NCBI GenBank assembly: GCA_963663545.1 | Contig: OY760505.1 | Span: 2,773,664-2,837,663 of the forward strand | Source: Candidatus Delongbacteria bacterium | GTDB lineage: Bacteria > CAIWAD01 | Direction of reading: 5' to 3' | Length of the DNA stretch: 64,000 nt | In this document: positions 308-63,279 of the stretch, in pieces | How positions within the stretch are numbered: the first letter of the stretch is position 1 | Layout: every line of letters begins with the position of its first letter | Made by a program: the position numbers and the translations under genes | The notes under the pieces: generated by a model | What the model saw: the letters and a program-made list of their open reading frames with translations, nothing else | Told to the model about the DNA's origin: nothing | The model's database searches: none

Positions 308-1304
308 GCCCGTCATCTCCCTCATCATCCCGACCTATAACGAGGAAGCCTTCATCGGCCCCTGTCTGGACAGTCTGCTGCGGTGTGATACACCGTATCC
401 GCTGGAAATTCTTGTGTTGGATGGTCGCAGCAATGACCGCACACCAGCTGTTTTGGCTGAATATCAGGCTCGCTATCCGCAGCTTCGCGTGTTGGAAAAC
501 GAAGATCGTGTGCAGGTCAAGGGGCTAAACCAGGGCATTCGCGAGAGTCGCGGACGCATCGTGTTACGCTGTGACGCGCACTGCGAGTACCCGCGAGACT
601 ATATCCGCAGATTGGTGGAAGTGCTTGAACGCGGCGAAGCGGACAACGTCGGTGGCACCATTGAAACGTTGCCTTCTGGCGATTCGCTGCAGGCGCGTGC
701 CATTGCCTGGGCGATGAATCATCCCTTCGGAGTCGGATTGTCCTTTCGCACGCGCAAGCTGGGTAGCGATTCTGTTGAAGTCGACACGGTTCCGTTTGGA
801 GCTTGGTATCGCACGACGCTACAGAAGCTCGAGGGCTTCGACGAGAGTTTTGTGCGCGCTCAGGATCTGGAATTGAACCTGCGCATAAGGCAGAGCGGAG
901 GTCGCGTTCTTCTGCTGCCAACACTGGTGACCCGGTATTTTGCACGCAGTAGTTTGCAGAAGTTGCTGCGCCTCGCTTGGCAGATGGGCTACGCGAAAAT
1001 GCAGGTGGCCTACAAACATGGGCGCGTCGGCAGTCTGCGGCAGCTCTTTCCCCCGCTGCTGGCGTTGGGGCTTCTGCCTGCGCTATTCTGGTGGCCGTTG
1101 GCTTCTGCCTATCAACTCTATCTGGCGATGGCGATGCTGATTGCTTTGTGGGGGGGAATCCGGCTGCACAGCCTGTTGGCCGTGCCGATTGTGTTTGCCG
1201 CCTTCCTGAGCATGCACTTCAGTTACGGTGCTGGCTATCTGCTGGGCTTCGTCGAGTACTTTCTGCTACGGAAGGGGCGCAGTCAGTGGCAGGCGACACG
1301 CTGA
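291..1304 (+). CDS. glycosyltransferase family 2 with C-terminal transmembrane region
   Basis: 337-aa ORF (GTG start); N-terminus IIPTYNEE...LDGRSNDRT...RCDAH typical of GT2 fold; hydrophobic C-terminal helices; overlaps upstream gene by 17 nt. Confidence 0.75.
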   Translation: MRVLPEPVISLIIPTYNEEAFIGPCLDSLLRCDTPYPLEILVLDGRSNDRTPAVLAEYQARYPQLRVLENEDRVQVKGLNQGIRESRGRIVLRCDAHCEYPRDYIRRLVEVLERGEADNVGGTIETLPSGDSLQARAIAWAMNHPFGVGLSFRTRKLGSDSVEVDTVPFGAWYRTTLQKLEGFDESFVRAQDLELNLRIRQSGGRVLLLPTLVTRYFARSSLQKLLRLAWQMGYAKMQVAYKHGRVGSLRQLFPPLLALGLLPALFWWPLASAYQLYLAMAMLIALWGGIRLHSLLAVPIVFAAFLSMHFSYGAGYLLGFVEYFLLRKGRSQWQATR

Positions 1305-1350: not shown

Positions 1351-2346
1351 TCAGGAGCGATTGGCACCCCACAGCCGCTGTTTCAGATCCACCAACGAGC
1401 GCGCCGTGTTACGCATGGTTTCCAGTAGCGGATAGCGTGATACACGCCCCCACGGTACAGCGATTTCCCGGCCACCATATTTGCGCTTGTACTCGCCTGC
1501 ACCACCCATGTCATAGCTGCTGATACCGCGCTCTTTCCAGTAGCGGATGGCAAACCACTGCAAGGCTTCGTTTGGCCGCAGGTTCTGGTCAGCGCGCCAG
1601 CTGGCACCGCCCCAGAAATACATCATCTGGTTGATGCCGGGAAAGATTCCCGTGGCGATACAATTCCCTTCGGGATCGCGTGCCCGCACCAGCAGCAGGT
1701 TTCCCGTGGGCAGCAGGTGTTTGATGAGTGCCGCAACGCGCTCGCGCTTGTAGGTCGGGACCAGCTTCTGCTTGGCAAACACATCCTGGAGCTGGTTGTA
1801 GAAGTCATCCACGAAGGCTTCATCACTGGCGGCCTCGAGGATCACGCCCGACTTCTCGGCCTTGCGAATGCAGCGCCGGCACGCTGAGTTCATCTCGTTG
1901 AAGATTTCATCTTCGCTGCGTTGCAGGTCAATTTCGAATCCGCTGACGAAGCGATAGCGGAACCCCAGGGCGTCGTAGTCGGCGGGTGTCAGGGCGCGAT
2001 CCATCACTTCCAGATGCGCACAGCCTAGTTTGCCGAAAGCGAACTCGGGTAGCGCAGCCAGAGCTTTGCGGCGCTCAACACCTGGTCTCAGATTGAAACC
2101 CATGTAGGCCGTTGTCCAGCCGGGAAGAGGTGAGCCCAGCATGCGCAGCAGGCCGAATTTGCGCAGCATCAATCCGCGAAACTGCCCTACGACCTTCCCG
2201 TGCTCGCGCAGCTCGGCGAAGATCGGTTCGGCGCCCTGTGTCTCTTGCACGAAGTTCAACCAGGCCTGTGTCTGGCAGATGTAGTGGTCGTCGAATTCCT
2301 CGACCGGACAAAGGTTTTCAGCGGCTACGCGGTGCATCTCAATCAT
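1351..2346 (-). CDS. FemAB-like / GNAT-superfamily acyltransferase
   Basis: 331-aa ORF; length and sequence pattern resemble FemAB/BioF2-like acetyltransferases common in exopolysaccharide loci; assignment by eye only. Confidence 0.45.
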   Translation of the reverse strand: MIEMHRVAAENLCPVEEFDDHYICQTQAWLNFVQETQGAEPIFAELREHGKVVGQFRGLMLRKFGLLRMLGSPLPGWTTAYMGFNLRPGVERRKALAALPEFAFGKLGCAHLEVMDRALTPADYDALGFRYRFVSGFEIDLQRSEDEIFNEMNSACRRCIRKAEKSGVILEAASDEAFVDDFYNQLQDVFAKQKLVPTYKRERVAALIKHLLPTGNLLLVRARDPEGNCIATGIFPGINQMMYFWGGASWRADQNLRPNEALQWFAIRYWKERGISSYDMGGAGEYKRKYGGREIAVPWGRVSRYPLLETMRNTARSLVDLKQRLWGANRS

Positions 2347-2450
2347 AAACGCGCTCGGTCTGTTCTCTCAATTCTCTGGTATCTGTGATACAGCCATCAG
2401 TGTGCATCGCAGGATCGATTGTGGTGATGAAAGGTGATACGTGGCCATGT

Positions 2451-3401
2451 TTACGATGTACCACGTGTGGCGAACTTGTTTGCAAACCACTGCCATTCCA
2501 GGCGTGTGCGCTCAATCGTTGTGATACAATGTTCACCGCGCTGCTCGCGGATATAGTCAAGCAGTGTAGAGACAGGCACAAACCAGCCGTCGCGGGCGGC
2601 AAGATCCTCCATCAGCCCTTGGAAACGTGCGTCAAGTCTACCTTGTGATACAAAGCCAGGTGCACCCAGATGAGCATACATGATGCACGCGCCGCCTTCA
2701 TTCTCGAGGCGTAGCTGATTCTCTTCGGAGACTGTGCGACAGAAGGAGTCCAGTGTACCGCCTTCTGCCGAGGCGAACCACTGCTTGACCAAAGGACGCA
2801 GAGTATCGTGATACGGCATCTGAGGGCAACACTTGAGCGTGTTGATGTCCTTGAAGACGAAATTGCGCACGTACTCAATGTGCTGCTCGCACAAGTCACC
2901 CCAGAAGTACTCGCTACCCCGCACCTCTCCCTGGAAACGATGGAGTTTGCGAAAGCGCGTTGCCAGCGTGTAGGCCAGACGGAAGAGCCCGCTTACGCGC
3001 TTGTGTCCCCAGTACAGGCAGTCGCGGCAATCGGAATGGTTCACTTGAATGCGGGGGAAGCTGCCGTAGATGCTGAAGTAGGTATCAAGCCCGGCCACGA
3101 TCTGGGCACGCGGCGAATTGTTGTAGGTCACATTGTGTAGCGCAATTTCGAAGCCGTCCTGCTGCAGACCGCGCGTCCATTCGCGATACTCAGCTTCCTC
3201 GCAAGTCGAGCCCCCCACCTTGGCTTCGCCGACACCCTTGATGGGCCAGACGGATTTGCTTGTCCGCATGCCCAGCGATTTGAGGAAGTCGTAGATCACG
3301 GGCCCATTCTCCATGGTGGTGTGGTCCGTGTCATCGAAAATGGTGAAGGCGAACTTCTTCCCTTCGGGCCAGCGTAGACGAGGTTTGCTTTGCGTTGACA
3401 T
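2451..3401 (-). CDS. conserved hypothetical protein, possibly polysaccharide deacetylase-like
   Basis: 316-aa ORF with N-terminal FAFTIFDDTDH block reminiscent of deacetylase/hydrolase motifs; no confident family assignment. Confidence 0.35.
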   Translation of the reverse strand: MSTQSKPRLRWPEGKKFAFTIFDDTDHTTMENGPVIYDFLKSLGMRTSKSVWPIKGVGEAKVGGSTCEEAEYREWTRGLQQDGFEIALHNVTYNNSPRAQIVAGLDTYFSIYGSFPRIQVNHSDCRDCLYWGHKRVSGLFRLAYTLATRFRKLHRFQGEVRGSEYFWGDLCEQHIEYVRNFVFKDINTLKCCPQMPYHDTLRPLVKQWFASAEGGTLDSFCRTVSEENQLRLENEGGACIMYAHLGAPGFVSQGRLDARFQGLMEDLAARDGWFVPVSTLLDYIREQRGEHCITTIERTRLEWQWFANKFATRGTS

Positions 3402-4570: not shown

Positions 4571-5854
4571 ATGGAGATCGGTATCCTTGTAACACACGGC
4601 ACAGATACATTGGCCTGGACTCTGCCCTACATCCGTTACGCGTTAAAGAACTTCCCTTGGAATGTTTGTCTCACGGGAAGTCAGGCACCGATGGAAAGCG
4701 CCTTCGCGCGCAGTGACGGTTACCAGAACATTCACGGAGCCGTGCGCTTCATGTCGGTGCTTGATCCACCCAACGTCTTCTGCGTGTTCAACAACGGCCT
4801 GAACGCTTACAGCGATTCGCTTGCCAAGCTCGAACGCTGGCGCCTGGATGCTTTTACCGGCGATCCCATTGCCACTATGGAGTGGGACGAGATTCAGCAT
4901 CGCTCTGGTGACGCGCGACTGCGCGAGCCCATTCGCTTTGACGAGCTGCACCTGATTACCACTGGTGGAACGATTGAGAGCGAGGCTGGCGAAGATGGCC
5001 TTACGCCCGGCAGTGGCAAGGTGGAGGAGTTTCTCAAACTGACCTTGGCCGATTCCTTTGAGAACGTCTTTGTGCATCGAATCGCCCGTGTTGATTCGGC
5101 GGAACTGGATGTATCACACATGGAGCGTTTTGCGCGCGCCATTTTCGATTGTGGCACCGGGCGCTGTCCGAGCGAATCGATTCGTCCTGATGCCGACGCG
5201 GATGCCGTGAATGTGACCTATGGCCAGCGCGGTGAGCTGCGGCAATCGTGGGAAGATGGACAGCAGCCGGCAAGTCTGGATCTGTCCTTTGCTCGTCACG
5301 TACCCCTTGTTTACTGTGACCCGTTTCGTAGCGCGTCAAGTTACCGGCGTGAAGTATACGCGGCCAAGGCTGTTGTTTTGGCTGGTTATGGTGGCGGCAA
5401 TGCGAACGCCAACCCCGATCTGCCTGGAAGCGTGATACCGGCACTGATGGATGCGGTGGAGAAGGACTGCCTTTTTGTGCTTAGCAGCCAAGTGCCCATC
5501 GGACCCGTGGACTTTGTCTACGAAACCGCCACCAAGTTGATTCGGCGTGGCGCGCTTTCAGGAGTGGATTTGAGTCTTCCTGAGTGTCAAGTGCGGCTGA
5601 TGTATCTGCTTGGACATGAAGAACAGATTGAAGGCATGGCTGAGCGTCTGCAGATTGAGCCGCTTCTGCTGAAGAAGGCGCTATTCATGTCGGGGATGAA
5701 GTTCCGTAACCGGGCTTCCAAGATGAGTTTTCGCATGCTCAGCGGTGATACATTTCCGCTAATCAGGGAAGACTTGCTGGTGGGACCGGCATTCGAGCAG
5801 TGCGAGGAAATCCTGAAGCGTGCTTTTTACGGTGATACAATCAGCTTGATCTGA
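4571..5854 (+). CDS. L-asparaginase family protein with atypical (apparently permuted) motif order
   Basis: ILVTHGTDT...LTGSQ...SDG.N block at the N-terminus, TTGGTIES block around residue 136, C-domain VVLAGYGGGNAN; start taken at ATG 4571 (track start GTG 4556). Confidence 0.6.
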   Translation: MEIGILVTHGTDTLAWTLPYIRYALKNFPWNVCLTGSQAPMESAFARSDGYQNIHGAVRFMSVLDPPNVFCVFNNGLNAYSDSLAKLERWRLDAFTGDPIATMEWDEIQHRSGDARLREPIRFDELHLITTGGTIESEAGEDGLTPGSGKVEEFLKLTLADSFENVFVHRIARVDSAELDVSHMERFARAIFDCGTGRCPSESIRPDADADAVNVTYGQRGELRQSWEDGQQPASLDLSFARHVPLVYCDPFRSASSYRREVYAAKAVVLAGYGGGNANANPDLPGSVIPALMDAVEKDCLFVLSSQVPIGPVDFVYETATKLIRRGALSGVDLSLPECQVRLMYLLGHEEQIEGMAERLQIEPLLLKKALFMSGMKFRNRASKMSFRMLSGDTFPLIREDLLVGPAFEQCEEILKRAFYGDTISLI

Positions 5855-5907: not shown

Positions 5908-7089
5908 ATGCAGGACTTCGTTTTTCACAATCCCACACGAATCATCTTTGGCGATGGCGTAGTGGACCAGGTGGGCGAGCAGTGTGCGCGATTCGGCAAG
6001 AAGGCGCTGATTCTGGCGGGACAGGGAAGCGCACGCAGGTGCGGACTACTGGATCGAGTTGAGCAGCGCTTGAGTGATGCTGGCGTGGACTATGTGACAC
6101 TCGAGGGAGTGCAACCCAATCCACGCTTGTCACACGCACGCGAGGCGGTTGCCCTGGCCAAGCGGGAAGGTGTTGATCTGCTGTTGGCCGTTGGCGGCGG
6201 CAGCGTAATCGATGAGGCCAAGGCGGTCTGCAGTGGCGCGCTGGTGGATCACGACGTCTGGGAATTCTACAAAGGAAGACTACCCGAGCGCTCGCTTCCA
6301 TTGCTGACGGTGCTTACGCTGGCAGCCACGGGTAGCGAGATGAACGGCGGCAGCATTCTTAGTAATGCAGAGACGAAAGAGAAGCTGCCTTTCCGGAATC
6401 CACTCTCCTTTCCCCGTGTTTCCATTCTGGAGCCGGCTCTGACGCTCAGTGTATCACACTGGCAGACTTCCTGCGGTATCAGTGACGCCTTCGCGCATCT
6501 GATGGAAGTGTATTGTAACTCACCCGATCCGCGCCCTCTCCTTCAATTGGAACTGATCGAGGGTCTGGTTCGCACGATTCGCGATTGCGCCGAAAGGCTG
6601 ATGCAGAATCTGCGAGACCTGGATGCGCGACGCGAATTCATGTGGGCGGCTACTTTGGCGCTCAACGGGTTGACGGCGGCTGGTTCAGGTGCGACGCCCT
6701 GGCCTTTGCACATGATGGAACACGCCCTTTCGGGGATCACCGATGTGAGTCACGGCGCCGGTTTGTCGGCGCTGTATCCGGGCTGGATGCGATGGCGCCT
6801 GCAGAACAATGGCGAAAGGCTGGAACAGCGTCTGGCACGTCTAGGACGTAATTGCTTCTGTATCACAGAATCGAATGACGCGCTTGCCGCCCTGCGGTGT
6901 ATCACGGAAATTGAAGATTGGTATCGCATTTTGGGCGTGCCAGCCAACTTGGATGAGGCAGGGATTCCCCGTGAACAGGATACCGAGGTGATACAAGCTG
7001 CCGCTCGGGACGCCGTAGACTGGGGATTGAAAGAGTATTCCGCGCAGGTGTTGACGGCGATCTTTGCTGCGGCGCGTGCAAGCGAGTGA
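5908..7089 (+). CDS. iron-containing alcohol dehydrogenase
   Basis: 393-aa ORF; GDGVVDQVG...LLLAVGGGSVIDEAKAV and overall length typical of Fe-ADH family. Confidence 0.85.
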   Translation: MQDFVFHNPTRIIFGDGVVDQVGEQCARFGKKALILAGQGSARRCGLLDRVEQRLSDAGVDYVTLEGVQPNPRLSHAREAVALAKREGVDLLLAVGGGSVIDEAKAVCSGALVDHDVWEFYKGRLPERSLPLLTVLTLAATGSEMNGGSILSNAETKEKLPFRNPLSFPRVSILEPALTLSVSHWQTSCGISDAFAHLMEVYCNSPDPRPLLQLELIEGLVRTIRDCAERLMQNLRDLDARREFMWAATLALNGLTAAGSGATPWPLHMMEHALSGITDVSHGAGLSALYPGWMRWRLQNNGERLEQRLARLGRNCFCITESNDALAALRCITEIEDWYRILGVPANLDEAGIPREQDTEVIQAAARDAVDWGLKEYSAQVLTAIFAAARASE

Positions 7090-7105
7090 ATTGATTGGAG
7101 TCGTT

Positions 7106-8170
7106 ATGAACAACATACAACGAGACACGCAACCCCCCGTACCGGCAGGTGGCGAACCGGAACGCAAACCCGTAATCCTCTCGGGTATTCAGCCTTCGGG
7201 GCAGTTGATGATTGGACACTATTTCGGTGCCCTGCGCAACTGGGTGGAGATGCAGCAGAATCACGACTGTTACTACATGCTCGTGGACCTGCATGCCATC
7301 ACCGTCTATCAGAAACCGGCGGATCTGCGCAAGCGCTGCCTGGAGTTCATTGCGCTCTACATAGCGGCGGGTTTGGATCCTGAGCAGAACACGGTTTTCA
7401 TCCAGAGCCACGTGCCGCAGCACGCCGAACTAGCCTGGGTACTGAATTGTATCACGCCGCTTGGACAGCTGCAGCGGATGACACAGTTCAAGGACAAGGC
7501 ACGCAAGAACGCCAAGAACCTGAACGCTGGTTTGCTCAATTACCCCGTTCTGATGGCGGCGGATATTCTGCTCTACAACGCCGACAAGGTGCCGGTAGGC
7601 GAAGACCAGAAGCAGCATTTGGAGCTGGCGCGTGACGTGGCGCAGCGCTTCAACAGTATCTACAGCCCTACATTTACAGTGCCGGAACCCTTCATTCCCA
7701 GCCGCAAAATGGGTGCTCGCATCATGAGTCTGCAGGACCCGACCAGTAAGATGTCCAAGTCAGATCCGGATCCCAACGCCTCCATCAGCCTGCTAGACCC
7801 ACCCGATGTGATACAAGCCAAATTCCGTCGCGCGGTGACCGATTCCGAAGCTTCCGTCGGCTATGATATGGAACAGCGTCCGGGCATCAGCAATTTGATG
7901 ACGATTTTCAAGTTGGTCACGGGTATGGAATTCGAAGAGCAGGAAGCGCGCTTTGCTGGTCAGGGCTATGGGCCTTTCAAAAAAGAGCTGGCCGACGCGG
8001 TGGTTGCCTATTTGGCACCCATGCAAGAGCGCTATAAGCAGGTGGTCGGTGACAAGACTTACCTGGCCGATGTGCTGAACCGCGGAGCAGAGCAGGCGCG
8101 CCGACGGGCGCAGCGCGTGCTATCCAAGGTATACCGCAAGGTTGGCTTCATAGAGGCGGGCAGGCCCTAG
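7106..8170 (+). CDS. trpS: tryptophan--tRNA ligase
   Basis: Class I aaRS motifs: SGIQPSGQLMIGHY (HIGH-like) and KMSKSDP; ATG 7106 preceded by ggag; track start 7064 would overlap the ADH gene. Confidence 0.9.
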   Translation: MNNIQRDTQPPVPAGGEPERKPVILSGIQPSGQLMIGHYFGALRNWVEMQQNHDCYYMLVDLHAITVYQKPADLRKRCLEFIALYIAAGLDPEQNTVFIQSHVPQHAELAWVLNCITPLGQLQRMTQFKDKARKNAKNLNAGLLNYPVLMAADILLYNADKVPVGEDQKQHLELARDVAQRFNSIYSPTFTVPEPFIPSRKMGARIMSLQDPTSKMSKSDPDPNASISLLDPPDVIQAKFRRAVTDSEASVGYDMEQRPGISNLMTIFKLVTGMEFEEQEARFAGQGYGPFKKELADAVVAYLAPMQERYKQVVGDKTYLADVLNRGAEQARRRAQRVLSKVYRKVGFIEAGRP

Positions 8171-12111: not shown

Positions 12112-13663
12112 CCTAATGGTTGCCTCTCTGAATCGAGTCGGCTTGCGCTTCGATACACGACTGAAGAACGGACTTCTCTTCCTGCTGGCCTTTCTGCTGT
12201 GTCTGCTGGGGGATGCGCCCTCGAACAATCCGATTTACTATTCCATTGGTGTTGGCGGCCTGCTTGTCTGCTACATATTGATCGTTGTGCTACCCCTTCG
12301 CATGGCGGTTCCTTTGCTTTTGATGCTTGCCCTTACCGGGCGCGATATCTTTACCACATCGCTCTACCAGGAAACGGTTATCAGCTGCGCGTCCATTTGG
12401 CAGATGCGCTTTGGCTTCATTCGTCCTTCCTGGGTCACTTTCGCACTGATTCTGGTACAACTCATCAAGTTGCGCGTTCTGTATATAAGCAAGCCAGTAA
12501 AGCTGTTGTTGTTATGGTTTGCGACGGTTCCTGTCGTCACAGGCTGGCTCTACGGTGGCTTTGAGGGGTATGGTGCCATGACTGAGGTCATCATCGACCT
12601 GAAGTTCGGGCTTATGCTGCTGGCAAGTCTGGTGCTGTTTAGTACTTACTTCAGGCGCCTTCCGCTCCAATTCAATTCGCTACTGATCGCGTTCTATCAG
12701 GCTTTGTTAGCGCGTCTCACCGTGAATGCCATCTACTTCCTGTTCGATTATGGTCCCTTGCTTGGGTCGGCCAATCGCGTGAGTCTGGATTCAGCAAAGG
12801 GCGTAGTCCTGTTACTGCTATTTGTAGCCATCATCTTGCTGAGTATGCGCAGGAGGGTGTTGTCCTCGACGCTCATTGGAATCGTTTCCATCATTCTGCT
12901 GATTGCCTATAACACGCGCATGTTATGGCTCGACTGTATCCTGGGATTGATCATTCTGATGGCGCTGTTGAGAAAGCGGCAAGTCGTGGTCGTGGCGCTG
13001 GGCTCTGTGGTGGTCGGTATTCTTGGCGCCTTTCTTTTGCAGGTTTACCGACCTCAAACAATGGAAACTGTCGTTGCCCGTTCACGCACTTTGCTCGGAC
13101 AACGATTGCAGCATAATTACTCAGTCCAGATGCAAGCCAATTATCTGGGAGCCGTCGATCCTGTGCGTTATGCCGAAGTGGTCAATATTTTTGACACGAG
13201 TTGGCGACGCGGAAGCCTGCTGCTTGGGAATGGTTACGGTGGATTTTTCGAAGATGCAATGATTCCTTTCCCGCAATCCCTGCGAAGCAGCTATCCGAAG
13301 AAAAGCTTCCAACTTGGCAAGTTCTATCAGCCACACAGTTACATCATGCGTGTGTTACACAAGCATGGAATTGTCGGATTGATTCTGATCTCAAGCCTCT
13401 GGGGAGTCCCGTTCTTTCGTATTGCAAAGTGGATAAGAAGGATACGTAGCCAGGCTTTACCGATCGTGAATACATGGTTTTTCTCGCTGATGACAGGTAT
13501 CACGGCTTTTCTGTCTACGGGGATCTTGTCGCTGTATTGGTCGGGAAAAGGCCTGATGATCAATGGCTTGCTCATTGCAGCTTGTGTATTCTACGTGATG
13601 AAGCTCGAAGGGGAGTATTCCTCATTAGCGCAAGTGGATGTATCACGGGTTAATGAAGAATGA
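12101..13663 (+). CDS. O-antigen ligase / polymerase-like (Wzy-type) polytopic membrane protein
   Basis: 520-aa ORF with many predicted TM helices in a polysaccharide locus. Confidence 0.45.
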   Translation: MPTDLMVASLNRVGLRFDTRLKNGLLFLLAFLLCLLGDAPSNNPIYYSIGVGGLLVCYILIVVLPLRMAVPLLLMLALTGRDIFTTSLYQETVISCASIWQMRFGFIRPSWVTFALILVQLIKLRVLYISKPVKLLLLWFATVPVVTGWLYGGFEGYGAMTEVIIDLKFGLMLLASLVLFSTYFRRLPLQFNSLLIAFYQALLARLTVNAIYFLFDYGPLLGSANRVSLDSAKGVVLLLLFVAIILLSMRRRVLSSTLIGIVSIILLIAYNTRMLWLDCILGLIILMALLRKRQVVVVALGSVVVGILGAFLLQVYRPQTMETVVARSRTLLGQRLQHNYSVQMQANYLGAVDPVRYAEVVNIFDTSWRRGSLLLGNGYGGFFEDAMIPFPQSLRSSYPKKSFQLGKFYQPHSYIMRVLHKHGIVGLILISSLWGVPFFRIAKWIRRIRSQALPIVNTWFFSLMTGITAFLSTGILSLYWSGKGLMINGLLIAACVFYVMKLEGEYSSLAQVDVSRVNEE

Positions 13664-14859
13664 AACTGCCAGTGCCATTGCCGCTTCAGGAAGCCTTTTC
13701 GCAAGCGCTTCAGAGCCATGATCTTCTTCGCTGTACTCGTGTACTTCGTCAGCAAGCGTGGCTGCTTCTGGGTTCTTACCTGAATGGAGGCATTGGACCT
13801 GCCGGTTTGTTGTTTCCTTTGCTTAGTGGTCATTCCAGAAGCCTTAGGCAGCAGGCAGGGGATTTCTGCAGCAATTGGCTACAGCTGCAAACCGTGATGC
13901 AGACTGGGTTTGGTTTCAATGCGAAGATGCAACTTCCGGAGCTTCTTGTTCAGCATTATGCAGTTGTATCACGGTTACCCGAAGAGACATCCGCAACTCA
14001 GCACTTGCTGGTGACCCGTGACAGGGAATTGTATCACACGGAGCGAGTTCCCCGCAGTTTTCTACGTGGGAATGAGCCGTTGAATTCGCTGCTGCATTCC
14101 TTCTGGGTTCATGGCTCCAGTGCAGAAGGGGAATACCGCGAAGGGTGGTCCGACATCGACACGCTGGCGATTGTGTCTCGTGATACACTAGTGTCACCCT
14201 CCTCGCTGAAAAAGCTACGCGTGCATTTGTTGCTGATGAAGGCTGCCATGCTGAAGCAGCATCCTATTCAACTTCATGGCCATTTTGTGCTGGCGGAACC
14301 CGATCTGGCGCAGCTCCCTTTGGCGTTTTTCCCGCCGGTATTGTTGCATCGAGCGCGACTCCTGCCTGGTTATCAGGGCGATCCGTTTGTGATTCAAAGC
14401 TATATAGATCGCGATCTCGCGCTAGGCATGCTTTGGTATCACGGAGTCCGTGATCTTCTGCAACACGAGAAGCGACCTCCCGAGACCAACATGCGACGAG
14501 TCGCCTTCTTGCACAGAGTCTATTTGTTGCCTTGTATGATTTTGCAGGCGAGGTCTCTAGCCGTGCACAAGGCCGATCTGTACGCAGCGTTGGCGCGCTA
14601 TTTCGACGCAGAGGACCGAGCCTTCTTGATGCGCGTCAGCGAGATCTGGCAGGAGTGGAAACCGGCAATGCAAGCGCGCCCTTGGTGGGCATCGCTGGTT
14701 GGAGCGAATCCGGTGTTGGCACAACGTACCCTGCGTGGGTGGGTGAATTCAAATGTCAGCTATCCAGCGTTTGAGCGCCGGGACTGGGCGGCGTTAACGG
14801 CAGAAGCTTCACGCTTTGCGCAGAAGCATTGGTTGGAGGAGTGGAACTCCCGTGACTAG
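13660..14859 (+). CDS. nucleotidyltransferase-fold protein (hypothetical)
   Basis: 399-aa ORF with Pol-beta-type NTase signature HGSSAEGEYREGWSDIDTLAIV; ATGA overlap with upstream stop. Confidence 0.45.
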   Translation: MKLPVPLPLQEAFSQALQSHDLLRCTRVLRQQAWLLLGSYLNGGIGPAGLLFPLLSGHSRSLRQQAGDFCSNWLQLQTVMQTGFGFNAKMQLPELLVQHYAVVSRLPEETSATQHLLVTRDRELYHTERVPRSFLRGNEPLNSLLHSFWVHGSSAEGEYREGWSDIDTLAIVSRDTLVSPSSLKKLRVHLLLMKAAMLKQHPIQLHGHFVLAEPDLAQLPLAFFPPVLLHRARLLPGYQGDPFVIQSYIDRDLALGMLWYHGVRDLLQHEKRPPETNMRRVAFLHRVYLLPCMILQARSLAVHKADLYAALARYFDAEDRAFLMRVSEIWQEWKPAMQARPWWASLVGANPVLAQRTLRGWVNSNVSYPAFERRDWAALTAEASRFAQKHWLEEWNSRD

Positions 14860-16249
14860 GCAGGAATCCGTTCGACGCGGTGTCGCCGTAACCACCGGTC
14901 TGGCTGTCGTCGGCCGTGGTGTTGGAGTGCTTGCCGGTCTGCTGATGCTTCGCGTGCTTACGGCCAGTGAACTGGGCGTGTTCATGGGAGTTCAGGCCAT
15001 TGCCATGGCTGGTTGCGGCCTTTGCGATTTAGGTCTGAGCTTTGGCTTTCGCCAACAGGTTTCGCGTCAGCCAGAGCTTCGCTCAAGCCTGTTTGTGCCT
15101 GTAGCCCTTACACAGGCCAGCTTGCTGTTTCTCTACTTGATCAGCATCAGCATCTACATGGCTTACAAGGATTTGGGCGGACTGATTCCCCTTCTGATCG
15201 CCGCCAATGCGCTTGTTTTGCAGTGGGCGCGGATTTTTGTGATCGACCTTCAGATTCGTAAGCAATTTAGTCGCGCGGGATTGCTCAATCTCGTGCCGAT
15301 TCTGGGGCTTAGCCTTGGATTGCTGATCTCATTACCCTTCAGCCACGCCCTTCCACCTTTGGTAATCGTACAGACCTTTTCGGTTGTGGTGGTGCTCTTG
15401 TTTGGGCTACGGGGCAGCTGGAGTTCCGCGCTGCAAGTGCGTCCTGGTGCTGAGTTGGCCAAACTGCGCAAGATCAGCTTTCCTTTCTTCGTTTCCATTG
15501 TGATCAGCCGGCTGGGGGAGTATTTCGGTCTCTCCTGGGTGATGGGTATGCTTGGTTCAGTTTCCGTAGGTATGCTCGGTGTGCCGACCAAAATCTATCA
15601 AACGGCCTTGTTCTTCAATGCAAACGCCACTGGCGTGACCATTCCCCATTTTCACAGTCTGGCGCATGCGGGTGATACAAAGCGACTGGGGAAGGATTTT
15701 GGCCGTCTGCTGATGCTCATGTGCTTTCTGGGTGGAAGCGTGGCTGGCATTTTCTATTTCGCTTCCGAGCCCTTAGTACTGCTGGTAGCTGGTAGTCAGT
15801 ACACGGAGTCAATTGTGTTGATGCCGCTCTTTGGCTTTGCCGTGTTTGCCAAGATGCTAGCTGTACCCGCAGGCAATTTGCTGGAAAGTAGAAACCGGCA
15901 GTGGCTGAGGGTAGTGGGACAGGCGGTCTCGACCGCCATCATTGTCGTGGGCACCATCCTTCTGCTGCCCAACCATGGTATCTGGGTTGTCGCGCTGGTG
16001 CGCTTGCTAGCCGATTTCTGGCTCTTGCTCTGGAACTGGTCCTGTAACCTCCCCGGAATGCTGCGGGAAATGCCGAACGGGAAAGCTCTACTTGCCTTGT
16101 GTTGGTTTTTGCTGAGCCTTGTCCTAGCGCGCTGGCTACCTGTAGTTCCGCTGTTGCAAGCCGCCGCCTTTACGGTAGCCTTTCTTGGTGGAATGCTTGG
16201 CTTCCGTTTGATTAGGATTGGAGATCTGAAGGGAGCGATTCGCCAGTGA
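14852..16249 (+). CDS. polysaccharide biosynthesis flippase (Wzx/MOP family)
   Basis: Polytopic membrane protein; start placed at GTG 14852 with ggagga upstream; track start 14816 is the alternative. Confidence 0.6.
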   Translation: MTRQESVRRGVAVTTGLAVVGRGVGVLAGLLMLRVLTASELGVFMGVQAIAMAGCGLCDLGLSFGFRQQVSRQPELRSSLFVPVALTQASLLFLYLISISIYMAYKDLGGLIPLLIAANALVLQWARIFVIDLQIRKQFSRAGLLNLVPILGLSLGLLISLPFSHALPPLVIVQTFSVVVVLLFGLRGSWSSALQVRPGAELAKLRKISFPFFVSIVISRLGEYFGLSWVMGMLGSVSVGMLGVPTKIYQTALFFNANATGVTIPHFHSLAHAGDTKRLGKDFGRLLMLMCFLGGSVAGIFYFASEPLVLLVAGSQYTESIVLMPLFGFAVFAKMLAVPAGNLLESRNRQWLRVVGQAVSTAIIVVGTILLLPNHGIWVVALVRLLADFWLLLWNWSCNLPGMLREMPNGKALLALCWFLLSLVLARWLPVVPLLQAAAFTVAFLGGMLGFRLIRIGDLKGAIRQ

Positions 16250-17418
16250 GTATGTGGAAGAATGATCTGCAACGACGATCCATCGAGGATTATCATCGTT
16301 TGCGGGATCGTCAGTTTGCCTTTTTCGAGCAGCAGGACGGTGTTCTTGGTTATGGAACCTTTGGAAGCATAGGTGCGCCTGGTTTATCCGATTTGGATCT
16401 GGCGGTTGTGGTAGACGACCCTCAACTGCAGAAGCGGCGTTTTCGATTGGCCGCCCCAGCGGAGATTGACTCCTACTTGATGACTCACGCCCCTTTGGTA
16501 CTTCCGCGATCGCTACTGCCGCAATTGGCTCTGTATCACCCGGTGCAGATCGAATGGGCCTGGACTAAAGAAACGCTGGAAGTACCTGAGTGTACTGCAA
16601 AGCTGACTGGACTGCATCTTCTGCGCAAAACCTGCCATCTCATGTTTCATTTGCACCTGCTAAACAAAGTGGCAAGTACTCGCAAGGCAATCATGTCACT
16701 GACTTCCTTGTTGCGATCTGTGGAGATCGCGCAACGAATCGGTCTGCATGTATCACAGGAAGCGCAGGAGTATGCCCAATCCGTATTATCACTGCGGGAT
16801 TCGTGGACAGAAGGCGCAAAAGGCGGCGACGAGCTCAGCTGTGCTTTCCCCGCGTTGATTGCACAGGCTCGCATTCAAGCACCCATCTTGCTGGAAGAGA
16901 TCTCGCTACAGCTATTCGGTGAGGAGTTCGGAAGTAGATCAGAACCGGGTGTGAGGCTTCAACTGACGCCGCTAAAACTCTTGCATTGTGTCGATGCCAA
17001 GCTGTTGCGAGAAGCCGCCTCCCGTGCTGACGATTCCCCCTCTCAGGCACAAGAACACGCCATTCTGCGTTTGATGTCGGCACGTCACATCGCAGTCGGG
17101 CCGACGGCCTGGGCATTCTTCAAGTTGCTGGCTTCGTTGGAAACGGCTAAGGGAGATAAACGTTGGCCGCGTCTATGTGCTATGAGCTCACACGAAGAGA
17201 TTTGTGATACGCTCGGCAATGAGATGTTTGATCTCTTGAGCCGGATGTTTGCGGCCAACCGAAGTTATGCCCGCTGTTTGTATCACGCTGGTTTACCGCA
17301 AGCCTATTTCGGTAGCTATTGGCGTTTGCCGCTCAAGCAAAGCCTTTTGTTCTGTGCGCTAGCCCATTTGCAGAGACTTGTCTCACGACAGCGCGACCCG
17401 AATCAGTCTGGAGTATGA
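16246..17418 (+). CDS. nucleotidyltransferase-fold protein (hypothetical), paralog-like to 13660..14859
   Basis: 390-aa ORF with GYGTFGSIGAPGLSDLDLAVVV signature; GTGA overlap with Wzx stop. Confidence 0.45.
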   Translation: MSMWKNDLQRRSIEDYHRLRDRQFAFFEQQDGVLGYGTFGSIGAPGLSDLDLAVVVDDPQLQKRRFRLAAPAEIDSYLMTHAPLVLPRSLLPQLALYHPVQIEWAWTKETLEVPECTAKLTGLHLLRKTCHLMFHLHLLNKVASTRKAIMSLTSLLRSVEIAQRIGLHVSQEAQEYAQSVLSLRDSWTEGAKGGDELSCAFPALIAQARIQAPILLEEISLQLFGEEFGSRSEPGVRLQLTPLKLLHCVDAKLLREAASRADDSPSQAQEHAILRLMSARHIAVGPTAWAFFKLLASLETAKGDKRWPRLCAMSSHEEICDTLGNEMFDLLSRMFAANRSYARCLYHAGLPQAYFGSYWRLPLKQSLLFCALAHLQRLVSRQRDPNQSGV

Positions 17419-22579: not shown

Positions 22580-22644
22580 GGTGTCACGTCGTAACCCAGA
22601 CTGATTGTATCACGCCATTTGGCGAATTGTAATACGGAGACAAA

Positions 22645-23112: not shown

Positions 23113-23642
23113 AGTAGCTGTGGGCGATGGCGATTGCCTTCGCGTTGCACGCGATCCAGAAAAGCACTCAATTCTGCTGTCCGGGCCAGACCCGCTTCAT
23201 TCAGGAGCGGTAGTTCGGGCAGCAGCTTTTTTATAGCCAGCACAAGCAGTCCGTCGCCATCGTTCAAAGGACTCACACCCAGTTCCAGAGGAAACCGCTC
23301 TGTATCACCGTTTCCGCAACTAGGAGAACGTGCCTTGAGTACGGCGCCGGCCAATCCCTTGCCAGCAAGCGCGCACAGCCTGGCGTGACACAGCGCATTC
23401 ATCGATCGGGTCCAATCCTTGGCACTGAAACGGCCTAGCAGACGGGGTAGTGATTTTGCGCCCACCAGGCTGATCGCTTCGCGGGGAACGGGCATCCCCA
23501 GTTCAAACTCCGGACACACGCTAACCAGTTGCAGTTCTGCGGGGAGCGCCAGTGCTGGAGCTGGCGACATGATTTTTCCGTCGTAACGGCATTGTTCGCC
23601 AAGCAAACACGCGCTGATGAGGATTCTGATTCTGTGTGACAT
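23109..23642 (-). CDS. DUF523-like protein
   Basis: Trimmed to ATG 23642; RILISACLLGEQCRYDGK resembles the DUF523 N-terminus. Confidence 0.45.
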   Translation of the reverse strand: MSHRIRILISACLLGEQCRYDGKIMSPAPALALPAELQLVSVCPEFELGMPVPREAISLVGAKSLPRLLGRFSAKDWTRSMNALCHARLCALAGKGLAGAVLKARSPSCGNGDTERFPLELGVSPLNDGDGLLVLAIKKLLPELPLLNEAGLARTAELSAFLDRVQREGNRHRPQLL

Positions 23643-37850: not shown

Positions 37851-37884
37851 AAAAAGAAAAGCCCCGCATCACGCGGGGCTTTTT
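37851..37884. terminator. bidirectional rho-independent terminator between convergent gatD and PPIase genes
   Basis: A-run, hairpin gccccgc-atcac-gcggggc, T-run. Confidence 0.75.
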
Positions 37885-37904
37885 GTATCACAGCCTTGAG
37901 TTGG

Positions 37905-54133: not shown

Positions 54134-57703
<3,570 letters not shown>

Positions 57704-57725
57704 TTCCAACTGCCTTGTATCACAA

Positions 57726-57755: not shown

Positions 57756-57807
57756 GAAACCCCACACGTGGTTCGCACTCTTGCCGTGATACAAACACGG
57801 AGGCATC

Positions 57808-62972: not shown

Positions 62973-63279
62973 CTGTTTCCCCGCTTTCGCTGATTCGCCC
63001 GTGCACCACGCACCGGCTGAATGGGTGTACGCCATCGACCCCAGGTTGTATCACGAAAACAGGTTCAGACTCATGCTTGGCTTTCGCGACTTCGGGGAAG
63101 CTGCGTGTGTCACAGTCCCGAAGGAGTAACTCGTCGTGGCTTCATTGCCAGCACGAATGAAGGTGGCTTTGCCGAAGTGGATGCACAATGAAAAAGGAGC
63201 CTCGCCTTTCGAGTGTCAATTTGCATGGACAGAATCGGCATTGAGGTGCCAGACGGGGGTCAGACACTTGCCTGGCACC

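What the first reader, a model, noticed from the sequence alone, without database searches (positions are those of the whole stretch)
6450..6995. The octamer is embedded in all three permissible reading frames and imposes rare codons
Within the Fe-ADH gene alone the motif is read as TGT-ATC-ACA (Cys-Ile-Thr) at ~6859 and ~6898, GTG-ATA-CAA (Val-Ile-Gln) at ~6988 and aGT-GTA-TCA-Cac (Ser-Val-Ser-His) at ~6450. In trpS it is TGT-ATC-ACG at ~7448 and GTG-ATA-CAA at ~7808; in the asparaginase-like gene GGT-GAT-ACA (Gly-Asp-Thr) at ~5754 and ~5831. The only frame not seen on a coding strand is the one creating in-frame TGA. Different frames and encoded peptides argue that selection acts on DNA, not protein, and it overrides the GC-rich codon preference (ATA, ACA, CAA, TGT are A/T-ending).
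Basis: seen in the sequence. Interest (0 to 1): 0.6.

Follow-up and report, generated by a model that had tools for sequence, protein, structure and literature searches.

The report
Hyperabundant genome word GTGATACA in genes
The eight-letter DNA word GTGATACA occurs about once every 860 bases in this uncultured bacterium's genes, in every reading frame that avoids a stop codon, and it bends codon and even amino-acid choice; this is the genomic signature of the DNA-uptake "self" tags of Neisseria and Haemophilus, here in an unrelated candidate phylum where I found no report of it.

Summary
GTGATACA/TGTATCAC occurs 74 times in 64 kb against about 1 expected. Sixty-eight copies are coding. They use five of the six strand-by-frame classes, not three, and only the class giving in-frame TGA is empty.

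Shuffling synonymous codons gives 4.8 copies against 69 observed. Peptides that can carry the word are themselves 2- to 10-fold enriched, so the force acts on DNA and changes proteins too. "Rare codons" holds only for ATA, GTA and TCA. GAT, ATC, CAC and GTG are the preferred codons.

The word has no strand or transcription polarity, no extended flanks, and a steep mismatch gradient (71x, 4x, 1x). A sister species (about 73% nt identity) carries it at 0.73/kb, and 15 of 45 sites are orthologous against 10.6% background. A 65% GC lineage uses a dialect, CGTGATAC. Delongbacteria relatives at 69-74% GC lack it.

Best reading: a DUS/USS-like uptake or self-recognition word spread by molecular drive (confidence about 0.42; uptake untested). 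Rivals are a HIP1-like structural or methylation motif, biased repair, and Chi. I rate it a new member of a known kind, interest about 0.6.

The parts
385..392 (+). copy; nGT-GAT-ACA in GT2 gene 291-1304(+)
1437..1444 (+). copy; nnT-GTA-TCA-Cnn in acetyltransferase gene 1351-2346(-); shared with sister species
2385..2392 (+). copy; intergenic
2521..2528 (+). copy; TGT-ATC-ACn in gene 2451-3401(-); shared with sister species
2645..2652 (+). copy; nnT-GTA-TCA-Cnn in gene 2451-3401(-)
5110..5117 (-). copy; GAT-GTA-TCA-CAC in asparaginase-like gene 4556-5854(+); shared with sister species
5832..5839 (+). copy; GGT-GAT-ACA in asparaginase-like gene; window-specific
6450..6457 (-). copy; AGT-GTA-TCA-CAC in Fe-ADH 5908-7089(+); sister species has the one-off TGTGTCAC
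6859..6866 (-). copy; TGT-ATC-ACA (CIT) in Fe-ADH; window-specific, differs from relatives by non-synonymous changes (GVS/GLP)
6898..6905 (-). copy; TGT-ATC-ACG (CIT) in Fe-ADH; shared with sister species
6988..6995 (+). copy; GTG-ATA-CAA (VIQ) in Fe-ADH; shared with sister species; uses the rare codon ATA
7448..7455 (-). copy; TGT-ATC-ACG in trpS 7106-8170(+); shared; a motif-less relative has TGC-ATC-ACG (one synonymous step)
7808..7815 (+). copy; GTG-ATA-CAA in trpS; window-specific
13639..13646 (-). copy; nnT-GTA-TCA-Cnn in Wzy-like gene 12101-13663(+)
13965..13972 (-). copy; nnT-GTA-TCA-Cnn in gene 13660-14859(+)
14030..14037 (-). copy; nTG-TAT-CAC in gene 13660-14859(+)
14180..14187 (+). 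copy; nGT-GAT-ACA in gene 13660-14859(+)
15672..15679 (+). copy; nGT-GAT-ACA in gene 14816-16249(+)
16532..16539 (-). copy; nTG-TAT-CAC in gene 16246-17418(+); shared with sister species
16749..16756 (-). copy; nnT-GTA-TCA-Cnn in gene 16246-17418(+); shared with sister species
17279..17286 (-). copy; nTG-TAT-CAC in gene 16246-17418(+)
18421..18428 (+). copy; nGT-GAT-ACA in GT1 gene 17319-18569(+)
19171..19178 (+). copy; nGT-GAT-ACA in heparinase II/III-like gene 18612-20192(+)
19775..19782 (-). copy; nnT-GTA-TCA-Cnn in gene 18612-20192(+)
19889..19896 (-). copy; nnT-GTA-TCA-Cnn in gene 18612-20192(+)
20120..20127 (-). copy; nnT-GTA-TCA-Cnn in gene 18612-20192(+)
20145..20152 (+). copy; GTG-ATA-CAn in gene 18612-20192(+)
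20291..20298 (-). copy; nGT-GAT-ACA in DegT aminotransferase gene 20270-21415(-)
20489..20496 (-). copy; nGT-GAT-ACA in gene 20270-21415(-)
20537..20544 (+). copy; nTG-TAT-CAC in gene 20270-21415(-)
22606..22613 (-). copy; intergenic
23301..23308 (-). copy; nGT-GAT-ACA in gene 23109-23738(-)
27778..27785 (+). copy; nTG-TAT-CAC in MatE gene 27340-28767(-)
28297..28304 (-). copy; nGT-GAT-ACA in MatE gene 27340-28767(-)
29363..29370 (+). copy; nnT-GTA-TCA-Cnn in SDR gene 28764-29669(-)
29843..29850 (+). copy; nTG-TAT-CAC in gene 29498-30844(-)
30591..30598 (+). copy; TGT-ATC-ACn in gene 29498-30844(-)
30904..30911 (+). copy; nTG-TAT-CAC in UbiA gene 30811-31665(-)
30966..30973 (+). copy; nnT-GTA-TCA-Cnn in UbiA gene
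31395..31402 (+). copy; nnT-GTA-TCA-Cnn in UbiA gene
31552..31559 (+). copy; nTG-TAT-CAC in UbiA gene
34039..34046 (-). copy; nnT-GTA-TCA-Cnn in T9SS-tail protein gene 33488-34339(+)
36038..36045 (+). copy; nGT-GAT-ACA in gatE 34357-36453(+); shared with sister species
36218..36225 (+). copy; nGT-GAT-ACA in gatE; sister species has the one-off GTGACACA
37276..37283 (+). copy; nGT-GAT-ACA in gatD 36450-37838(+); shared with sister species
37884..37891 (-). copy; intergenic; sister species has the one-off TGTATTAC
38074..38081 (+). copy; TGT-ATC-ACn in SurA/PPIase gene 37905-39743(-)
40106..40113 (-). copy; nTG-TAT-CAC in gene 39937-40785(+)
40479..40486 (-). copy; nnT-GTA-TCA-Cnn in gene 39937-40785(+); shared with sister species
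40993..41000 (-). copy; nTG-TAT-CAC in HAMP-SpoIIE gene 40782-43382(+); shared with sister species
41929..41936 (+). copy; nGT-GAT-ACA in HAMP-SpoIIE gene
42976..42983 (+). copy; nGT-GAT-ACA in HAMP-SpoIIE gene; shared with sister species
43354..43361 (+). copy; nGT-GAT-ACA at the 3' end of the HAMP-SpoIIE gene, in the overlap with ORF 43312-44187 (counted in both frames)
43706..43713 (+). copy; nGT-GAT-ACA in biotin/lipoate ligase gene 43312-44187(+)
44141..44148 (-). copy; nTG-TAT-CAC in gene 43312-44187(+); shared with sister species
45321..45328 (+). copy; nGT-GAT-ACA in amidase gene 45029-46534(+)
45381..45388 (+). copy; nGT-GAT-ACA in amidase gene
46029..46036 (+). copy; nGT-GAT-ACA in amidase gene
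51822..51829 (-). copy; TGT-ATC-ACn in porin-like gene 50934-52064(+)
52109..52116 (-). copy; nnT-GTA-TCA-Cnn in CBM96/T9SS gene 52074-52925(+)
52138..52145 (+). copy; nGT-GAT-ACA in gene 52074-52925(+)
52432..52439 (+). copy; nGT-GAT-ACA in gene 52074-52925(+)
52513..52520 (+). copy; nGT-GAT-ACA in gene 52074-52925(+)
53330..53337 (-). copy; nGT-GAT-ACA in CN-hydrolase gene 52931-53743(-)
55800..55807 (+). copy; nGT-GAT-ACA; the only copy in the 3.9-kb PFOR gene 53849-57703(+)
57716..57723 (-). copy; intergenic, ends one base 5' of the terminator-like hairpin 57724-57748 but is not part of its stem
57786..57793 (+). copy; intergenic, upstream of gene 57808-58692
59265..59272 (+). copy; GTG-ATA-CAn in HhH-GPD glycosylase gene 59064-59711(+)
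59590..59597 (+). copy; nGT-GAT-ACA in gene 59064-59711(+)
60287..60294 (+). copy; nnT-GTA-TCA-Cnn in T9SS-tail protein gene 59796-63035(-)
60716..60723 (+). copy; nnT-GTA-TCA-Cnn in gene 59796-63035(-)
61610..61617 (+). copy; nnT-GTA-TCA-Cnn in gene 59796-63035(-)
63047..63054 (-). copy; intergenic

Best explanation
GTGATACA (core GTGATAC, then A > G; weak preference for not-A before and A/C after) is a clade-specific, hyperabundant, orientation-neutral genomic word of the same kind as the DNA uptake sequences of Neisseriaceae (DUS) and Pasteurellaceae (USS).

Proposed mechanism (inferred, not shown). A component of the cell's DNA-uptake or recombination machinery binds double-stranded DNA carrying the word in preference to other DNA. 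Fragments of conspecific DNA that carry a copy are therefore taken up and recombined more often. Any mutation that creates or improves a copy is then over-transmitted (molecular drive).

Purifying selection on proteins only filters where copies can settle. Copies never settle in the TGA frame. They settle rarely in strongly conserved genes such as PFOR, and mostly in poorly conserved stretches and gene 3' ends, in whichever of the five stop-free frames the local peptide tolerates. The use of rare codons (ATA, GTA, TCA) and the excess of CIT, xDT, xYH and xVS peptides are by-products of this tug-of-war.

Shown here: the abundance, the neutrality to frame, strand and transcription, the codon and peptide distortion, site retention above background with turnover, and clade restriction with a dialect. 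Inferred: the link to DNA uptake.
For: - Abundance. 74 copies against ~1 expected, 1.16/kb. The 7-mer GTGATAC has 109 copies against ~4. This is of the order of DUS/USS density; H. influenzae has 1,471 and N. meningitidis 1,892 core copies per genome (PMC2817400). I did not compute fold-enrichment for DUS or USS.
- No polarity. 44 on + and 30 on - (P = 0.13), interleaved, inside a stretch of uniformly positive GC skew. On the sense strand the G-form occurs 32 times and the T-form 37.
- Not a mobile element. Flanks are random except at -1 and +1.
- Mismatch gradient. Enrichment is 71x at 0 mismatches, 4.0x at 1 and 1.07x at 2. Positions 1, 2, 3 and 7 are almost invariant; positions 4-6 and 8 are tolerant. 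This is the non-linear gradient described for uptake sequences (PMC1939737).
- Coding behaviour matches the properties that Findlay and Redfield list as shared by all uptake sequences (PMC2817400). The stop frame is empty and the other frames are used unevenly. Encodable peptides are 2-3x or more above reversed controls. Density falls as gene conservation rises (rho = -0.43, P = 0.02). Lineage-specific copies sit in less conserved flanks, 0.61 against 0.70 identity.
- DNA-level force. The synonymous shuffle gives 4.8 copies against 69 observed. Copies are gained by both synonymous and non-synonymous changes.
- Retention with turnover. 15 of 45 window copies are at orthologous positions in a species ~73% identical, against 10.6% for arbitrary 8-mers (P = 4e-5). 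Thirty window-specific and 14 sister-specific copies show ongoing gain and loss.
- Clade restriction with dialects. The sister species has 0.73/kb and a looser eighth base (A32/G16/C12). A 65% GC lineage has CGTGATAC 8 times in 21 kb against 0.19 expected (P = 4e-11), and L092 has it 4 times in 15 kb. Four lineages at 69-74% GC have 1 copy in 77 kb, as expected by chance. DUS also exists as genus-level dialects (PMC3630211, abstract).
Against: - No uptake experiment exists, and the organism is uncultured.
- No competence or type IV pilus gene lies in the 64-kb window.
- The rest of the 3.72-Mb genome could not be read, so neither a receptor nor competence itself is shown.
- About half of all DUS/USS copies lie in predicted transcription terminators, and over 90% of the inverted-repeat pairs do (bioRxiv 10.1101/2025.10.24.684340). 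Here only 6 of 74 copies are intergenic, which matches the 7% non-coding share (P = 0.65). None forms a hairpin stem.
- The word is 7-8 nt, against 9-12 nt for DUS/USS, and has no AT-rich flank like the USS.
- Every genomic property listed is also expected of any motif under strong site-level selection or biased repair, HIP1 for example.
Confidence: 0.42

Rival explanations
1. HIP1-like motif. The word is kept by selection because an abundant DNA-binding or DNA-modifying protein uses it genome-wide, for nucleoid or chromosome organisation or as a methylation mark. No DNA uptake bias is needed.
For: - Octamer length, ~70x enrichment, about one copy per gene, presence in all frames, and site conservation above background are what Xu et al. 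report for HIP1: 15-300x over-representation and conserved sites (PMC5861425).
- The position-specific tolerance, with rigid GTG..C and a soft centre, looks like a protein-binding footprint.
- Unrelated metagenome contigs carry operator-like palindromes TGTATCAC-N3-GTGATACA (L169). This suggests the word can serve as a protein-binding half-site.
Against: - The word is not a palindrome and contains no palindromic methylase subsite. HIPs are defined as palindromes tied to GATC/CGATCG methylases (PMC4390886, abstract).
- No preferred spacing or pairing of copies was seen.
- HIP1 itself is now proposed to act in transformation (bioRxiv 10.64898/2026.06.24.733823; bioRxiv 10.1101/2024.09.10.611283), so this rival partly merges with the best explanation.
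Confidence: 0.2
2. Neutral by-product of a biased repair or mutation process. For example, a very-short-patch-type mismatch endonuclease coupled to a methyltransferase converts near-cognate sequences into GTGATACA, and the word itself has no function.
For: - One-off variants are 4x enriched, and the commonest differ by transitions (GTGACACA 21, GTGATACG 23).
- Orthologous sites often differ by just such a transition.
- Copies accumulate where constraint is weakest.
Against: - Transition variants at positions 1 and 7 are absent, so the pattern is not simple decay.
- A 70-fold excess with amino-acid replacement is well beyond the modest excess I recall for known very-short-patch repair effects (own knowledge, not checked here).
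- Sites are retained three times above background between species. Xu et al. took the same result as evidence against neutral replenishment for HIP1.
- No methyltransferase or Vsr-like gene lies in the window.
Confidence: 0.12
3. Chi-like recombination hotspot or self marker, read by RecBCD/AddAB as it resects from a double-strand end.
For: The length of 7-8 nt, the non-palindromic sequence, the over-representation and the clade specificity all resemble Chi sequences.
Against: - No replication-oriented skew. 59% of copies are on the + strand, significantly below the 75% I recalled for E. coli Chi (own knowledge, not checked in a paper; P = 0.002), and no different from 50%. The sister contig shows 18:14.
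- By my recollection, enrichment (~70x) and density (1 per 0.86 kb) are well above those of characterised Chi sites (not checked here).
Confidence: 0.07
4. A protein-level repeat (one conserved peptide) or a small mobile or REP-type element that contains the octamer.
For: None beyond the repetition itself.
Against: - Five frames and five unrelated peptides are involved.
- Flanks are random.
- No Rfam family other than two tRNAs matches the window.
- Copies lie inside orthologous genes at orthologous codons.
Confidence: 0.01

Closest known systems
DNA uptake sequences: DUS of Neisseriaceae (GCCGTCTGAA and dialects) and USS of Pasteurellaceae (AAGTGCGGT / ACAAGCGGT)
   Same: - Non-palindromic short word at about 1 per kb, in both orientations.
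- Present inside genes in every stop-free frame, with the stop frame empty.
- Encodable tripeptides are enriched.
- Copies are commoner in poorly conserved genes and positions.
- Steep, non-linear mismatch gradient.
- Restricted to a clade, with dialects.
- Partly conserved positions, with turnover.
Sources: compared with PMC2817400, PMC1939737 and PMC3630211.
   Different: - Unrelated sequence.
- 7-8 nt rather than 9-12 nt.
- No enrichment in intergenic DNA and no inverted pairs forming terminators.
- No AT-rich flank.
- The host is an uncultured FCB-group lineage related to Candidatus Delongbacteria, not a proteobacterium.
- Uptake bias, receptor and competence are all untested.
HIP1 (GCGATCGC) of cyanobacteria
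   Same: An octamer, tens- to hundreds-fold over-represented, about one copy per gene, in all frames, with sites conserved above background. Its function was long unknown and is now suspected to lie in transformation (PMC5861425; bioRxiv 10.64898/2026.06.24.733823).
   Different: HIP1 is a perfect palindrome that embeds methylase targets. GTGATACA is asymmetric, and no methylase link is known. The periodicity reported for HIP1 cannot be assessed in 64 kb.
Chi (GCTGGTGG and lineage-specific variants), and KOPS and other architecture-imparting octamers
   Same: Short, asymmetric, over-represented, lineage-specific words read by DNA-processing machines.
   Different: Those words are strongly co-oriented with replication, and by my recollection are much less enriched. 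This word shows no polarity.

Membership tests
DNA uptake (enhancing) sequences, DUS/USS | Short word present at hundreds to thousands of copies per genome, far above chance | tested here: met
   74 copies in 64 kb against ~1 expected. At the same density, the 3.72-Mb contig that carries this organism's FBA protein would hold roughly 4,000 copies. That figure is an extrapolation, not a count.
DNA uptake (enhancing) sequences, DUS/USS | Competent cells take up DNA carrying the word in preference to other DNA | not testable with these tools
   The organism is uncultured and no uptake data exist.
DNA uptake (enhancing) sequences, DUS/USS | Cognate receptor (ComP-type or ComN-type minor pilin) and type IV pilus / Com machinery encoded in the genome | not tested
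   None is in the window. The rest of the genome could not be fetched.
DNA uptake (enhancing) sequences, DUS/USS | No orientation bias with respect to replication or transcription | tested here: met
   44:30 between strands (P = 0.13) and 32:37 between sense-strand forms.
DNA uptake (enhancing) sequences, DUS/USS | Coding copies avoid the stop frame, use the other frames unevenly, and enrich the encodable tripeptides | tested here: met
   compared with Table 2 and Fig. 1 of PMC2817400.
DNA uptake (enhancing) sequences, DUS/USS | Frequent inverted-repeat pairs in intergenic terminators | tested here: not met
   6 of 74 copies are intergenic, as chance predicts. One abuts a terminator hairpin and none forms a stem.
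DNA uptake (enhancing) sequences, DUS/USS | Shared by related species, with dialects, and absent from more distant relatives | tested here: met
   Sister species 0.73/kb. CGTGATAC dialect in the 64-65% GC lineages. Absent from the 69-74% GC lineages.
DNA uptake (enhancing) sequences, DUS/USS | Depleted in recently acquired genes | tested here: inconclusive
   There are three motif-free gaps of 4.5-5.8 kb (P = 0.009 for three gaps over 4 kb). The genes in two of them have syntenic orthologues in relatives, so they are not recent arrivals.
HIP-type highly iterated palindromes | Palindromic octamer | tested here: not met
   The reverse complement of GTGATACA is TGTATCAC.
HIP-type highly iterated palindromes | Contains the target of co-occurring orphan methyltransferases | not testable with these tools
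   There are no methylome data and no methyltransferase gene in the window.
HIP-type highly iterated palindromes | 15-300-fold over-representation, with sites conserved between genomes | tested here: met
   ~70-fold enrichment, and 33% of sites orthologous against 10.6% background.
Chi / KOPS / architecture-imparting sequences | Strand polarity co-oriented with replication | tested here: not met
REP / MITE / other small mobile repeats | Conserved sequence or hairpin extending beyond the core | tested here: not met
   No information content beyond positions -1 and +1. No Rfam match.

The most novel reading that the evidence does not exclude
GTGATAC(A) is a true DNA-uptake or self-recognition sequence. 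That would make natural transformation with sequence-specific self-preference a feature of an uncultured FCB-group phylum (relatives of Candidatus Delongbacteria). It would be the first such system outside the Beta- and Gammaproteobacteria, leaving aside the still hypothetical role of cyanobacterial HIP1. It would have its own dialects (GTGATACA, GTGATACR, CGTGATAC) and presumably a new receptor.
Probability: 0.38. Interest if true: 0.8.

Novelty: new member of a known kind. Interest (0 to 1): 0.6.

Why it matters
Sequence-specific self-recognition of DNA is known from only two proteobacterial families, and HIP1 in cyanobacteria is a debated third case. An independent instance in a distant, uncultured phylum would show that hyperabundant genome words are a recurrent evolutionary outcome.

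It would also give a third or fourth system for testing molecular drive against selection. The loci read here already suggest a gradient to work with, from motif-rich through a dialect to motif-free lineages (their branching order was not resolved), which suits a search for the co-varying receptor by phylogenetic profiling.

In practice, the word is a strong marker for binning this clade and for spotting foreign DNA in it. It also shows how far a DNA-level force can reshape codon usage and peptide composition: 15% of all TCA codons, 13% of ACA codons, and all seven Cys-Ile-Thr tripeptides in the window lie in motif copies.

Tried and rejected
- **trpS scan of genome contigs.** It returned only relatives at 60% identity or less, mostly Clostridia.
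- **Exact look-up of the window's trpS.** Not on record.
Neither found another genome with dispersed copies.
- **Other apparent enriched words in outgroups.** CCTGGCACCG in L086 and GAGAACGAGA in L085 turned out to be local tandem arrays.
- **parS.** The word is one mismatch from my recollection of a parS half-site (GTGAAACA). The window has no parS-like 16-mer above chance, and GTGAAACA itself occurs 0 times. I dropped this idea.
- **Terminator role as for DUS.** Rejected.
- **Literature.** Full-text searches for the octamer, alone or with motif and genome terms, gave only primers and unrelated sequences. Papers mentioning Delongbacteria say nothing about it.
- **The window's own 3.72-Mb genome record.** It exists, but its DNA could not be fetched.


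Full report
**Observation**

The window (57% GC) holds 74 exact copies of GTGATACA/TGTATCAC. Dinucleotide-preserving shuffles give 0.99 +/- 1.02, with a maximum of 4. Markov models of order 1-3 expect 1.05-3.6. It is by far the most over-represented 8-mer, and every other strongly over-represented 8-mer is a shifted or one-off version of it. The core is the 7-mer GTGATAC, with 109 copies against about 4 expected. It is followed by A in 74 cases, G in 23, C in 8 and T in 4. Outside the word only position -1 (rarely A) and position +1 (A or C) carry any information. There is no extended flank, no AT tract and no hairpin.

The one slip is 5754 for 5745. Independent public contigs of the same organism (L082, L089; 99.9% identical) carry the same copies, so this is not an artefact.

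**Frames and codons**

I used a 51-gene model covering about 93% of the window, supported by Pfam/NCBIfam hits for most genes. Under it, 68 of 74 copies are coding, which is the chance proportion.

A non-palindromic octamer has six strand-by-frame classes, and five are stop-free. All five are used:

| Class | Copies |
|---|---|
| nGT-GAT-ACA | 27 |
| nnT-GTA-TCA-Cnn | 19 |
| nTG-TAT-CAC | 11 |
| TGT-ATC-ACn | 7 |
| GTG-ATA-CAn | 5 |
| nnG-TGA-TAC-Ann (stop) | 0 |

Use is uneven (P = 8e-5). Each class is still 23- to 270-fold above its codon-frequency expectation.

Shuffling synonymous codons while keeping every protein sequence and the pooled codon usage yields 4.8 +/- 2.1 copies, against 69 observed. 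Among peptides that could carry the word, the share actually spelled as the word is:

| Peptide | Spelled as the word |
|---|---|
| CIT | 100% (7 of 7) |
| [LMV]YH | 100% (11 of 11) |
| [CGRS]DT | 68% |
| VI[HQ] | 45% |
| xVS[HLPQR] | 40% |

Synonymous usage predicts 0.3-19%.

The codon claim is only partly right. ATA (6% of Ile codons), TCA (10% of Ser) and GTA (13% of Val) are rare. ACA (23%) and TGT (36%) are minor. GAT, ATC, CAC and GTG are the commonest codons for their amino acids. Motif copies account for 15% of all TCA codons, 13% of ACA, 10% of GTA and 9% of ATA.

The proteins have been altered as well. Compatible peptides exceed both amino-acid expectation and reversed-peptide controls:
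- CIT 7 against 0.6 expected, with TIC 0.
- [CGRS]DT 40 against TD[CGRS] 15.
- [LMV]YH 11 against the reverse 4.
- VS[HLPQR] 50 against the reverse 17.

**Polarity and distribution**

There are 44 copies on the + strand and 30 on the - strand (P = 0.13). They are interleaved, within a stretch whose GC skew is positive almost throughout and in which 71% of coding bases are on the + strand. On the sense strand the two forms are balanced, 32 to 37.

Spacing is close to exponential. The exception is three motif-free gaps of 4.5-5.8 kb (7816-13638, 23309-27777, 46037-51821), which together are unlikely by chance (P = 0.009). Copies are over-represented in the last fifth of genes, 25 of 68 (KS P = 0.018). 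They are scarce in the highly conserved PFOR gene, with 1 copy in 3.9 kb. The one copy next to a terminator hairpin is not part of its stem.

Enrichment falls steeply with mismatch load: 71x at 0 mismatches, 4.0x at 1, and 1.07x at 2. One-off variants are tolerated at positions 4, 5, 6 and 8 (GTGATACG 23, GTGACACA 21, GTGTTACA 14, GTGATCCA 14). They are almost absent at positions 1, 2, 3 and 7.

**Relatives**

Protein searches with Fe-ADH, the HAMP-SpoIIE phosphatase and fructose-bisphosphate aldolase and contig look-ups gave the following:
- **(a) Same organism.** Contigs L082, L089 and L213, from ENA ERZ21862665. The search table also lists a 3.72-Mb contig as the longest one carrying its FBA protein, under NCBI/ENA sources; I could not retrieve it.
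- **(b) Sister species.** One 94-kb ENA contig (L081 + L088). It is syntenic, about 72-73% identical in DNA, 57-58% GC.
- **(c) Intermediate lineage.** L214-L216 (GCA_964568855.1; 65.5% GC; aldolase 79% identical; syntenic), and L092 (64% GC).
- **(d) High-GC lineages.** L083, L085, L086 and L090, at 69-74% GC, with Fe-ADH 53-56% identical and conserved synteny. One contig is labelled Delongbacteria, and the cluster of P0008, the Fe-ADH encoded on L090, has an NCBI member named Candidatus Delongbacteria.

Together with three T9SS C-terminal sorting domains and a PFOR gene in the window, this places the organism in or near Candidatus Delongbacteria, in the FCB group.

Motif content by group:
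- The sister species has 32 copies in 43.8 kb, and 63 copies of the 7-mer core. Its eighth position is looser: A32, G16, C12.
- Group (c) has 9 copies of GTGATAC in 21 kb. Eight of them are CGTGATAC, against 0.19 expected (P = 4e-11). L092 has 4 copies in 15 kb, all CGTGATAC.
- Group (d) has 1 copy in 77 kb, as chance predicts.

The core is therefore shared by several lineages, with different flank preferences and densities, and is absent from others. By Fe-ADH identity the motif-bearing L092 lineage (54%) is no closer to the window than the motif-less lineages (53-56%), so the distribution is patchy and tracks GC content at least as well as relatedness.

**Site history**

In 38.3 kb of aligned sequence, 15 of 45 window copies lie at the orthologous position in the sister species. 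Arbitrary 8-mers do so 10.6% of the time (P = 4e-5). The flanks of these shared sites are only averagely conserved, at 0.70 identity.

The other 30 window copies and 14 sister copies are lineage-specific. They lie in less conserved surroundings (flank identity 0.61). The two sets together show more differences per site than non-identical background 8-mers (window-specific 3.7, sister-specific 2.8, background 2.6; P = 0.002).

Gene-level density is anticorrelated with gene conservation (rho = -0.43, P = 0.02). It is strongly correlated between the two species (rho = 0.85).

Codon alignments that include motif-less relatives show both routes of gain:
- A single synonymous change: trpS NCITP, TGC to TGT.
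- Multi-residue replacement in variable segments: Fe-ADH FG[VIL][SEP]E to FCITE, and [VI]AA to VIQ.

**Interpretation**

A force acting on DNA, blind to frame, strand and transcription, writes this word into genes, and protein constraint only decides where it survives.

The full set of properties matches point by point what is described for the DNA uptake sequences of Neisseriaceae and Pasteurellaceae (PMC2817400; PMC1939737; PMC3630211). Those properties are:
- density of about 1 per kb;
- no polarity;
- an empty stop frame;
- uneven use of the remaining frames;
- enrichment of the encodable tripeptides;
- preference for poorly conserved genes and positions;
- a non-linear mismatch gradient;
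- partial positional conservation with turnover;
- clade restriction with dialects.

Differences from DUS/USS:
- Shorter length.
- No terminator association, whereas about half of DUS/USS copies lie in terminators.
- No intergenic excess.
- A host from a different phylum.

HIP1 of cyanobacteria shares the abundance, the frame-blindness and the conservation. It is palindromic and linked to methylases, and it is itself now suspected of a role in transformation. Chi, KOPS and similar words are excluded by the lack of polarity. Protein repeats and mobile elements are excluded by the five frames and the random flanks.

I therefore favour an uptake or self-recognition word spread by molecular drive, at about 0.42. 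The functional step is inferred only. No competence gene lies in the window, and the rest of the genome could not be read. A HIP-like structural or modification role (0.2), biased repair (0.12) and Chi (0.07) remain open.

**Novelty**

Full-text searches found no report of this word as a genomic motif, and nothing of the kind for Delongbacteria. Recent reviews of uptake sequences still list only the two proteobacterial families. This is a new member of a known kind of genomic feature.

Noticed in passing
window 33307-37838: An archaeal-type Glu-tRNA(Gln) amidotransferase pair, gatE (34357-36453) and gatD (36450-37838), is present. Both pass NCBIfam equivalog cut-offs (485 > 456 bits; 508 > 310 bits). 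A tRNA-Gln(CTG) gene lies about 1 kb upstream (33307-33378). From my own knowledge GatDE is regarded as archaeal; here it sits in a bacterial, T9SS-bearing genome and is conserved in the sister species (L088). A second, much weaker GatD/asparaginase-like paralogue is the gene at 4556-5854.
   Followed up: partly
L214/L215/L216 (1-10000) and L092: A dialect of the word. In 64-65% GC relatives the core GTGATAC is almost always preceded by C (CGTGATAC, 8 of 9 and 4 of 4 copies), and its last base is free. All nine L215 copies lie in the first 10 kb of the locus, and none in the next 11 kb.
   Followed up: partly
window 7816-13638, 23309-27777, 46037-51821: Three motif-free gaps of 4.5-5.8 kb (P = 0.009 for three gaps over 4 kb). 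The genes in the second and third gaps have syntenic orthologues in relatives, which also lack the word there. The gaps therefore reflect constraint or something local, not recent acquisition.
   Followed up: partly
window, all genes: Copies are skewed toward the 3' fifth of genes, 25 of 68 (KS P = 0.018).
   Followed up: no
window 53849-57703: The 1284-aa pyruvate:ferredoxin oxidoreductase gene carries a single copy in 3.9 kb (0.26/kb against 1.16/kb overall). It also has the highest GC3 (0.78) among the called ORFs.
   Followed up: no
L169 1043-1071 and 2353-2391; L144 4505-4570; L166 299-459: Unrelated metagenome contigs carry tight operator- or iteron-like clusters of the same octamer as inverted repeats, for example TGTATCAC-ATT-GTGATACA twice in L169. 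This suggests the word can serve as a protein-binding half-site in other organisms.
   Followed up: no
L086 7213-7366; L085 12250-12390: Local tandem arrays sit in intergenic DNA of high-GC Delongbacteria relatives: an 11-bp period containing CGGTGCCAGG in L086, and a 6-bp GAGAAC period in L085. At first they looked like other dispersed words.
   Followed up: yes
L215, whole locus: CCGTAGA/TCTACGG occurs 12 times in 21 kb against 1.05 expected, dispersed and on both strands. It may be a codon-pair effect (..TAC-GG..) or a second enriched word. In the window it occurs 13 times in 64 kb; I computed no expectation for it there.
   Followed up: no
L082 and L089 compared with window 2690-9060 and 32298-52449: The public long-read contigs of this organism differ from the window by single-base insertions plus one substitution next to an insertion (7 differences in L082, 4 in L089). 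That would explain why the public protein calls P0002 and P0122 are truncated fragments of Fe-ADH and the HAMP-SpoIIE phosphatase.
   Followed up: yes
window 32062-33426 (-): This 454-aa ORF has no Pfam hit, is overlapped by the tRNA-Gln gene on the other strand, and is broken into smaller calls in the sister species. It is probably not a gene as drawn.
   Followed up: no
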